Part shown: piece after piece, positions 37,896 through 38,075 of the stretch
Layout: each line of letters starts with the position of its first letter
How positions within the stretch are numbered: the stretch's first letter is position 1
From: Eledone cirrhosa
Lineage: Eukaryota
Length of the DNA: 64,000 nucleotides
Reading direction: 5' to 3'
Assembly: GCA_964016885.1 (NCBI GenBank)
Contig: OZ024740.1
Coordinates: 292,640,001-292,704,000, forward strand
Program-made: the position numbers and the translations under genes
Notes under the pieces: generated by a model
The model's database searches: none
What the model saw: only the letters and a program-made list of their open reading frames with translations
What the model was told of the DNA's origin: nothing

Positions 37896-38075
37896 ATGTT
37901 GAAGCAACTGAAAGCCTTTTTTAAGAATTACACAGTGGTAGCTATTATGATCCCATCAATAGTTGCCTTACATGCTGGTTGGTATCATTTGCAATTTGAT
38001 TCCACTTTTATTGAACCTGAGAGGCAGGAAATTCGATTATTTGGTAAAGTAATTAAGAAAGCCCCCAAAGAATAA
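37896..38075 (+). CDS. 59-aa single-TM microprotein, putative uMKKS1 homolog (exon 37889-38106)
   Basis: Long polypyrimidine tract + CAG acceptor, AAACAATG start, MLKQLKAFFKNYTVVAIMIPSIVALHAGWYHLQFDSTFIEPERQEIRLFGKVIKKAPKE*, then donor AAA|GTGAGT. Confidence 0.85.
   Translation: MLKQLKAFFKNYTVVAIMIPSIVALHAGWYHLQFDSTFIEPERQEIRLFGKVIKKAPKE

What the first reader, a model, noticed from the sequence alone, without database searches (positions are those of the whole stretch)
37896..38075. Unannotated 59-aa single-pass membrane microprotein (uMKKS1-like)
Seen: basic amphipathic N-terminus (MLKQLKAFFKNY), hydrophobic stretch TVVAIMIPSIVALHAGWYHL, charged tail. It aligns without gaps to human uMKKS1 as I recall it (..LWRDYKVLVVMVPLVGLIHLGWYRI..): Y-x-V-x3-M-[IV]-P-x5-H-x-G-W-Y is shared. 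Inference: a conserved small mitochondrial membrane protein whose intramembrane H-x-G-W-Y motif may be a ligand or partner interface.
Basis: partly seen in the sequence, partly recalled or inferred. Interest (0 to 1): 0.82.

Follow-up and report, generated by a model that had tools for sequence, protein, structure and literature searches.

The report
Octopus uMKKS1 microprotein upstream of MKKS
This is a real, conserved gene for a 59-residue membrane protein, the likely octopus counterpart of a human mitochondrial microprotein, and it lies with a second tiny gene ahead of the cilia-chaperone gene MKKS in the same order as in humans, so the three likely share one messenger RNA in a very old arrangement.

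Summary
The ORF is real: 59 codons on their own exon, one predicted membrane helix. A profile of 16 animal relatives scores it 70.7 bits; 1,000 shuffles reach at most 6.2. It aligns without gaps to published human uMKKS1 (11 of 37 identical, by eye). The invariant core is H26-W29-Y30; G28, M18 and Y12 vary. The finding as written missed the context. A second ORF (43676-43840, 54 aa, likely uMKKS2) and an intact MKKS/BBS6 gene (ATG 45400) follow on the same strand, in the human order. Predicted splicing leaves gaps of 43-49 and 19 nt without ATGs. A snail gene model holds both small ORFs in this order; a leech model and one unnamed contig instead put the first ORF before a DnaJ gene. The best reading is a single-pass mitochondrial accessory protein supporting respiration, possibly complex IV, whose translation also dampens MKKS. 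Location and function come from human papers; no octopus RNA evidence was obtained. It is a new member of a known family. This scan noted the same layout earlier in other genomes, including another octopus. My literature searches found no invertebrate account.

The parts
37866..37888 (+). Polypyrimidine tract and splice acceptor ahead of the ORF1 exon; implies an upstream non-coding first exon, which was not located
   Evidence: Sequence; ranks 1 of 625 AG sites in 36000-46500 by a crude score
37889..38106 (+). Predicted exon carrying ORF1: 7 nt leader, ORF, 31 nt after the stop
   Evidence: the donor AAA|GTGAGT at 38107 ranks 3 of 577. Not confirmed by RNA
37896..38075 (+). ORF1, 59-aa uMKKS1 / LOC128706665 / micro-MKKS63-like microprotein; ATG with A at -3
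   Evidence: single copy in the genome by protein search
37932..37994 (+). Codons 13-33, predicted membrane helix; H26, W29, Y30 (invariant) and Q33 on one face
38136..38141 (+). ATTAAA in the intron after ORF1, a possible polyadenylation signal for a short ORF1-only mRNA; weak in AT-rich DNA
   Evidence: no control run
43658..43843 (+). Predicted exon carrying ORF2 (alternative acceptor giving a start at 43664); donor CAG|GTTTGT at 43844
   Evidence: acceptor rank 39 or 125 of 625, donor rank 8 of 577. Not confirmed by RNA
43676..43840 (+). ORF2, 54-aa second single-pass microprotein, likely uMKKS2 orthologue
   Evidence: 45% identity, E 1.9e-11 to the tail of the Nucella model P0037; 8 of 24 identical to human uMKKS2 by eye, including LGTY; helix 18-33
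45384..46405 (+). MKKS/BBS6 first coding exon, ATG at 45400
   Evidence: Cpn60_TCP1 E 2.4e-33; 80% to O. vulgaris MKKS-like, 71% to Argonauta, 28-29% to frog MKKS
47217..47395 (+). MKKS coding exon 2 (179 nt)
48712..48822 (+). MKKS coding exon 3 (111 nt)
50042..50512 (+). MKKS last coding exon; the four exons join to 588 codons without an internal stop

Best explanation
The ORF encodes a conserved 59-residue single-helix protein, likely the octopus orthologue of human uMKKS1, which would be read first from a predicted spliced mRNA that also carries a likely uMKKS2 and MKKS, and would sit in a mitochondrial membrane as a small accessory protein supporting respiration. Steps: (1) ORF, conservation, gene order and intact MKKS are shown here. 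(2) Splicing of the exons into one mRNA is predicted from splice sites and from the human layout. (3) Scanning ribosomes would start mostly at ORF1 (A at -3), fewer would leak to ORF2 and fewer still to MKKS, so ORF1 would be the main product and would damp MKKS; this is inferred from human reporter and ribosome-profiling data. (4) The basic N-terminus and one moderately hydrophobic helix would take it to mitochondria without a cleaved presequence; this is inferred, with location shown for the human protein. (5) The H26/W29/Y30/Q33 face would dock on a larger membrane partner, most likely a complex IV subunit or assembly factor; this is inferred, and rests on one human co-evolution/structure prediction. 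My odds: orthology 0.93, shared mRNA 0.8, mitochondrial membrane 0.85, respiratory-chain accessory role 0.55, complex IV specifically 0.4.
For: Family and shuffle control. Atlas hit to the LOC128706665 cluster at 0.93. Ungapped match to the published human sequence. Order ORF1-ORF2-MKKS with gaps of 43-49 and 19 nt and no ATG in the gaps. In human the two ORFs are 6.66 kb apart on chr20 but start 209 nt apart on one transcript (supplement of PMC10032668); here they are 5.6 kb apart and would start 223-229 nt apart. The Nucella gene model P0037 joins an ORF1 relative to an ORF2 relative in the same order. Human data: both uORF products are mitochondrial (PMC7066179). The uORFs repress MKKS translation (review PMC11837024), partly through their sequence (PMC7530721). 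The 63-aa protein is the locus's main product and its knockout lowers oxygen consumption (PMC13577902). A predicted link to a complex IV component or assembly factor is reported (10.1101/2024.10.01.615885).
Against: No RNA, ribosome or peptide evidence was obtained for this octopus. The human comparison is by eye at about 30% identity over 37 residues; the near-invariant Q33 is K in human; and no named vertebrate protein came up in my HMMER searches (0 of 21 as far as names were returned, 0 of 13). Human localisation data point to the mitochondrial periphery and an outer-membrane proximity dataset, which fits an inner-membrane complex IV role poorly. The complex IV partner is a prediction whose name I could not see (figure only). 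In contig L003 and the Helobdella model P0021 the ORF1 relative precedes a DnaJ gene, not MKKS, so the link to MKKS is not universal. The ORF2 acceptor is only moderately strong, and the Atlas did not recognise ORF2 (best score 0.83).
Confidence: 0.6

Rival explanations
1. It is the uMKKS1 orthologue but works in the outer mitochondrial membrane (protein import, contact sites or quality control), and lowers respiration only indirectly when lost.
For: Human tagged protein concentrates at the mitochondrial periphery, and endogenous protein is enriched in an outer-membrane proximity dataset (PMC13577902). The helix is short and only moderately hydrophobic. The review says inner versus outer membrane is unknown.
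Against: The predicted link to complex IV. Its weaker Atlas neighbours are inner-membrane respiratory microproteins (UQCC5, UQCC6, SMIM20, NDUFB1-type; scores 0.81-0.84, leads only).
Confidence: 0.2
2. The three ORFs are neighbours but mostly make separate mRNAs: short polyadenylated transcripts for the microproteins, and exon-skipped transcripts for MKKS. The tricistronic form is minor.
For: Each small ORF sits wholly within its own exon, so either could be skipped without touching the MKKS frame. There is an ATTAAA at 38136. Human transcripts use alternative polyadenylation in the leader. Stops upstream of several exon junctions would invite nonsense-mediated decay (established knowledge).
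Against: There are good donors right after both ORFs and no ATG in either gap. No polyadenylation hexamer was found in 310 bases after ORF2. Human ENST00000347364 carries both small ORFs. This rival changes the mRNA structure only, not the protein's function.
Confidence: 0.15
3. The peptide is conserved mainly as a cis-acting, sequence-dependent brake on translation of the downstream gene.
For: Frameshifting a human MKKS uORF relieves repression in part (PMC7530721). Relatives sit 29-49 nt upstream of another ORF in octopus and in L003.
Against: The invariant residues lie mid-helix, 29 or more residues from the stop, and C-terminal tails vary in length and sequence. The same core is kept ahead of different downstream genes. 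The human protein is abundant, and a knockout that spares the MKKS ORF has a respiratory phenotype.
Confidence: 0.07
4. A chance ORF, or a chance likeness among short hydrophobic helices.
For: Short membrane helices resemble each other; there is no Pfam or PDB match.
Against: 70.7 bits against at most 6.2 for shuffles; invariant H/W/Y in 19 of 19 aligned sequences; position upstream of MKKS with a second conserved ORF in between.
Confidence: 0.02

Closest known systems
Human uMKKS1 = MKKS uORF1 = LOC128706665 = micro-MKKS63 (UniProt Q9HB66, 63 aa; identifiers as given in PMC11837024, PMC13577902, 10.1101/2024.10.01.615885)
   Same: Length, basic N-terminus, one helix, ungapped Y-x-V-x3-M-x-P-x5-H-x-G-W-Y-x7-F-x2-P pattern, first position in the leader of MKKS, and an intron between it and the second small ORF.
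   Different: About 30% identity over the core. The tail is unrelated by eye: a predicted hairpin with K/R-x-F-G here, a polar tail in human. Q33 is K in human. Localisation, expression and phenotype are untested in octopus.
Human uMKKS2 (MKKS uORF2, V9GZ13, 50 aa), compared with ORF2 at 43676-43840
   Same: Second position, similar length, one helix, ungapped W-x3-N-x6-I-x6-L-G-T-Y-x-L (8 of 24 identical by eye).
   Different: The human His before LGTY is Tyr in octopus and Nucella. The octopus ORF2 exon ends 3 nt after the stop, with an intron before the MKKS ATG; from recall, human uMKKS2 shares an exon with the MKKS start. The Atlas gave no supporting hit.
Drosophila Sloth1/Sloth2 bicistronic pair (PMC9681215)
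   Same: Works-like analogy: two small mitochondrial membrane proteins from one mRNA, proposed paralogues, acting on a respiratory complex in a stoichiometric pair.
   Different: Different families: the Pfam models UPF0640 and DUF4516 do not match, and Atlas scores are only 0.81-0.83. Here a third, cytosolic/centrosomal chaperonin-like ORF follows. Binding of ORF1 to ORF2 is untested.
COA3 and NDUFB1 small single-pass respiratory proteins
   Same: Size and a single helix; NDUFB1-type cluster at Atlas score 0.84; a loose likeness to COA3 is recalled.
   Different: No Pfam match in 19 of 19 family members. The octopus has a separate COA3-like locus on contig C8, whose best segment scores 7.2 bits against the ORF1 profile.

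Membership tests
uMKKS1 / LOC128706665 family | Small ORF (about 60 aa) upstream of the MKKS coding sequence on the same strand | tested here: met
   MKKS ATG at 45400, 80% to O. vulgaris MKKS-like, intact 588 codons
uMKKS1 / LOC128706665 family | Sequence likeness to human uMKKS1, including P-x5-H-x-G-W-Y | tested here: met
   11 of 37 identical, ungapped, by eye against the supplement of PMC7066179; Atlas 0.93 to the 'LOC128706665 homolog' cluster. No E-value against the human sequence was computed
uMKKS1 / LOC128706665 family | Single membrane helix after a short basic N-terminus | tested here: met
   Predicted only: helix 13-33, KD 2.08 over residues 14-28
uMKKS1 / LOC128706665 family | Followed by a uMKKS2-type ORF before MKKS | tested here: met
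   ORF2 43676-43840, conserved in Nucella (E 1.9e-11); likeness to human uMKKS2 by eye only; Atlas uninformative
uMKKS1 / LOC128706665 family | Carried on the same spliced mRNA as MKKS | tested here: inconclusive
   Splice sites and ATG-free gaps fit; no RNA data obtained
uMKKS1 / LOC128706665 family | Translated, mitochondrial membrane location, represses MKKS translation | not testable with these tools
   Shown for human only
Sloth1/Sloth2 (SMIM4/UQCC5, Brawnin/UQCC6) | Match to Pfam UPF0640 or DUF4516 | tested here: not met
   0 of 19 members at E <= 1; ORF2 0 families
Sloth1/Sloth2 (works-like) | The two co-encoded peptides bind each other | not tested
   No complex model was obtained
COA3 (Coa3_cc, PF09813) | Match to the Pfam model and being the genome's COA3 locus | tested here: not met
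   No match; a separate two-exon locus on C8 matches the model, each exon just under the cut-off
NDUFB1 (NADH_oxidored, PF08040) | Match to the Pfam model | tested here: not met
   0 of 19 members. The search for the genome's own NDUFB1 found nothing and its control was silent, so that part is uninformative
Any solved fold | Structural match above the generic-helix level | tested here: inconclusive
   Foldseek 0 matches; best VIA-align Z 3.6, rmsd 5.7, 50 aligned

The most novel reading that the evidence does not exclude
The uMKKS1-uMKKS2-MKKS tricistronic message dates to the common ancestor of molluscs and vertebrates. The two microproteins are ancient tandem paralogues that form a stoichiometric membrane pair, as Sloth1/2 do. 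The invariant His26 of ORF1, with the His/Tyr before LGTY in ORF2, holds a haem or metal cofactor during complex IV assembly. ORF1 is a portable cistron that moved in front of a DnaJ gene in annelids. The ancient layout alone I put at about 0.75; the paired cofactor-binding mechanism is the long shot.
Probability: 0.1. Interest if true: 0.85.

Novelty: new member of a known kind. Interest (0 to 1): 0.5.

Why it matters
The human 63-aa product is the main protein of a ciliopathy locus, falls in Alzheimer's cortex and is needed for full respiration (PMC13577902), yet its mechanism is unknown, and the review I read describes it as conserved across mammals. An octopus locus with the same three ORFs in the same order pushes the layout back to early bilaterians. 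The invertebrate alignment narrows the functional surface to three or four residues (H26, W29, Y30, Q33) that can be mutated directly. Relatives in mosquito, leech and snail show the family is hidden in databases as hypothetical or wrongly fused gene models, and they open invertebrate genetics. The interest is tempered because the protein and the human polycistronic locus are already published, and this scan has reported the ancient layout before.

Tried and rejected
Pfam gave nothing for ORF1, its 19-member alignment (three chance hits, E >= 0.068) or ORF2. A word-based protein search with ORF1 alone found nothing. A PDB sequence search with the profile gave 0 hits at E <= 10. Fold searches gave only generic helices; this is no evidence of a new fold. 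Five long repetitive phmmer hits (P0002, P0005, P0011, P0012, P0013) were dropped as artefacts; P0008 and P0021 were left out of the alignments because of long extensions. Paralogy of ORF1 and ORF2 was not supported by tools: BLASTP found no alignment, hhalign gave probability 0.5% (E 0.12) and the profile score was -0.8 bits. It rests only on the H-L-G-x-Y likeness of the two human peptides seen by eye. Second copies in the genome: the best other hits were E 9.86 and E 2.67 and were rejected. COA3 and NDUFB1 identity were rejected. A search for an SLX4IP-type neighbour (human head-to-head gene, recalled) found nothing and its control was silent, so it is uninformative. The first non-coding exon could not be located from donor scores. 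No sequencing-run evidence was obtained, so expression and splicing are open. The primary paper (Akimoto 2013) and the journal version of the interactome study are not held.

Full report
Observation. The window is repeat-rich animal DNA from an octopod, judged by an MKKS-like exon 80% identical to Octopus vulgaris and 71% to Argonauta; the genome is 3.0 Gb. The ATG lies 7 nt after a strong acceptor (rank 1 of 625 AG sites by my crude score), and a GTGAGT donor follows 31 nt after the stop (rank 3 of 577). The ORF therefore occupies one predicted internal exon, 37889-38106. It is single-copy in the genome by protein search.

Is it more than chance? phmmer against 1.84 billion proteins gave 21 hits at E <= 1e-3. 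16 of 21 are small proteins, or gene models containing one, with the same core; 5 are long repetitive artefacts and were dropped. In the 19-sequence alignment H26, W29 and Y30 are invariant. In the 17-sequence alignment Q33 is 16/17, P20 15/17, F38 14/17 and G28 10/17. A profile built without the query scores it 70.7 bits; the best of 1,000 shuffles scores 6.2. A profile search added 6 further proteins among 13 hits. Named members come from Aedes (AAEL006255), Helobdella and Nucella, labelled hypothetical or with automatic names such as 'putative secreted protein' and 'J domain-containing'. Pfam has no family for it.

Identity. The ESM Atlas places it at 0.94 with an arthropod-rich hypothetical cluster and at 0.93 (204 of 256 features) with a chordate cluster named 'LOC128706665 homolog'; shuffled proteins reach 0.9 in 4-10 of 100 cases, so this is support, not proof. 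The human MKKS uORF1 sequence printed in the supplement of PMC7066179 aligns without gaps, with 11 of 37 identities by eye. The strongest evidence is position: an MKKS/BBS6 gene starts at 45400 on the same strand (Cpn60_TCP1 E 2.4e-33; named hits), in four coding exons of 1006, 179, 111 and 471 nt that join to 588 codons without a stop.

A second microprotein. The Nucella model P0037 (125 aa) is an ORF1 relative fused to an extra 60 residues. Searched against the window, its head finds ORF1 (E 3e-11) and its tail finds a 54-codon ORF at 43676-43840 (45% identity, E 1.9e-11); the next-best hits are E 0.13 and 0.53. ORF2 has its own acceptor (exon start 43658 or 43664) and a donor 3 nt after its stop. 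It is predicted to have one hydrophobic helix. By eye it matches human MKKS uORF2 at 8 of 24 ungapped positions, including LGTY; the Atlas did not recognise it, so this assignment rests on position and a short motif. Joining the exons gives gaps of 43-49 nt and 19 nt with no ATG, and all three starts have A at -3. In human the two ORFs lie 6.66 kb apart on chr20 and start 209 nt apart on one transcript (supplement of PMC10032668); here the figures are 5.6 kb and 223-229 nt. I have no RNA evidence for the octopus.

The link to MKKS is not universal. The one metagenome locus recovered (1 of 37 pattern matches) has an ORF1 relative ending 28 bases before the ATG of a 259-aa DnaJ-domain gene, with no ORF2 or MKKS match on its 1,838 bases. 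The Helobdella model P0021 fuses an ORF1 relative to a partial DnaJ domain. So the peptide core is conserved independently of its downstream partner, which argues that the protein itself is under selection.

Anatomy and mechanism. AlphaFold2 (17 sequences, pLDDT 80.7, pTM 0.49) gives helix 2-11, a break, helix 13-33 and a hairpin at 45-55. On a helical wheel H26, W29, Y30 and Q33 fall within 100 degrees: a polar and aromatic stripe near the C-terminal end of the membrane helix. Invariant polar residues in a single membrane helix usually mark a binding surface (established knowledge). No solved structure matches by sequence or fold. For the human protein, both uORF products localise to mitochondria (PMC7066179 passage; PMC10908861 passage). 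The 63-aa product dominates the locus, is enriched in an outer-membrane proximity dataset, and its knockout lowers basal, ATP-linked and maximal respiration (PMC13577902 sections 11, 12 and 14). A proteome-wide prediction links LOC128706665 to a complex IV component or assembly factor (10.1101/2024.10.01.615885 passages and section 7); the partner's name is in a figure and supplements I could not see. The uORFs repress MKKS translation (review PMC11837024 passages), partly through their sequence (PMC7530721 passages). MKKS is listed as a polycistronic candidate in PMC3951408 (passages). I therefore read ORF1 as a single-pass mitochondrial accessory protein that docks through its H/W/Y face on a respiratory-chain partner, most likely on the complex IV side, and whose translation also damps MKKS. 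The outer-membrane data are the main evidence against the complex IV step.

Comparison with known systems. It meets the testable features of the uMKKS1 family. It works like the Sloth1/Sloth2 bicistronic pair only by analogy (PMC9681215 abstract and section 10), and fails Pfam membership for those families, for COA3 and for NDUFB1. Paralogy of ORF1 and ORF2 is not supported by my tools.

Novelty. The human proteins and locus are published. Ten paper searches and the passages read gave no account of invertebrate orthologues or of the layout outside vertebrates; the review says 'conserved across mammals'. This may be incomplete. Fig. 2a and the supplement of PMC7530721, which give the taxonomic range of the MKKS uORF, could not be read; Akimoto 2013 is not held; seven supplementary files of PMC13577902 were not searched; two of PMC8448870 were unreadable. 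Other papers were seen as passages only: PMC8448870, PMC4568590, PMC10032668 (plus supplement rows), 10.1101/2020.01.31.926402, 10.1101/2025.07.27.667088 and PMC12313729. Earlier notes of this scan report the same layout in other genomes, including another octopus, and on this window. I found ORF2 and the DnaJ pairing before reading them; they are unchecked and not counted as support.

Verdict. A real gene, a new member of a known family, within a likely ancient three-ORF message. Interest 0.5.

Noticed in passing
window 43676-43840 (+): Second unannotated microprotein ORF (54 aa) on its own predicted exon, likely uMKKS2; conserved in Nucella.
   Followed up: yes
L003 60-251 and 280-1059; protein P0021: An ORF1 relative sits just upstream of a DnaJ-domain gene with a late hydrophobic stretch (DNAJC4-like from recall); the Helobdella gene model fuses the two. 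Suggests a different polycistronic partner in annelids.
   Followed up: partly
proteins P0037, P0021, P0008, P0033, P0042: Gene predictors fuse this microprotein to neighbours or add long spurious extensions, which hides the family in databases.
   Followed up: partly
window 31098-31349: 62-bp tandem repeat, 4.1 copies, 99% matches, 6.5 kb upstream of ORF1; role unknown.
   Followed up: no
window 37972-38052 (+): An out-of-frame ATG in weak context inside ORF1 opens a short overlapping frame over the conserved H-W-Y codons; probably incidental.
   Followed up: no
window 45392-45397: ATTAAA hexamer immediately before the MKKS ATG; may be chance in AT-rich DNA.
   Followed up: no
window 1948-2883, 5309-6193, 10066-13325, 51253-53337, 61969-63597: Transposon remnants: one transposase-like frame and several reverse-transcriptase/endonuclease-like frames, recognised by eye and not tested; long (TA)n-type microsatellites at about 56400-61600.
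   Followed up: no
L003 1388-1837 (-): The 3' end of a WD40-repeat-like gene converges on the DnaJ gene (by eye).
   Followed up: no
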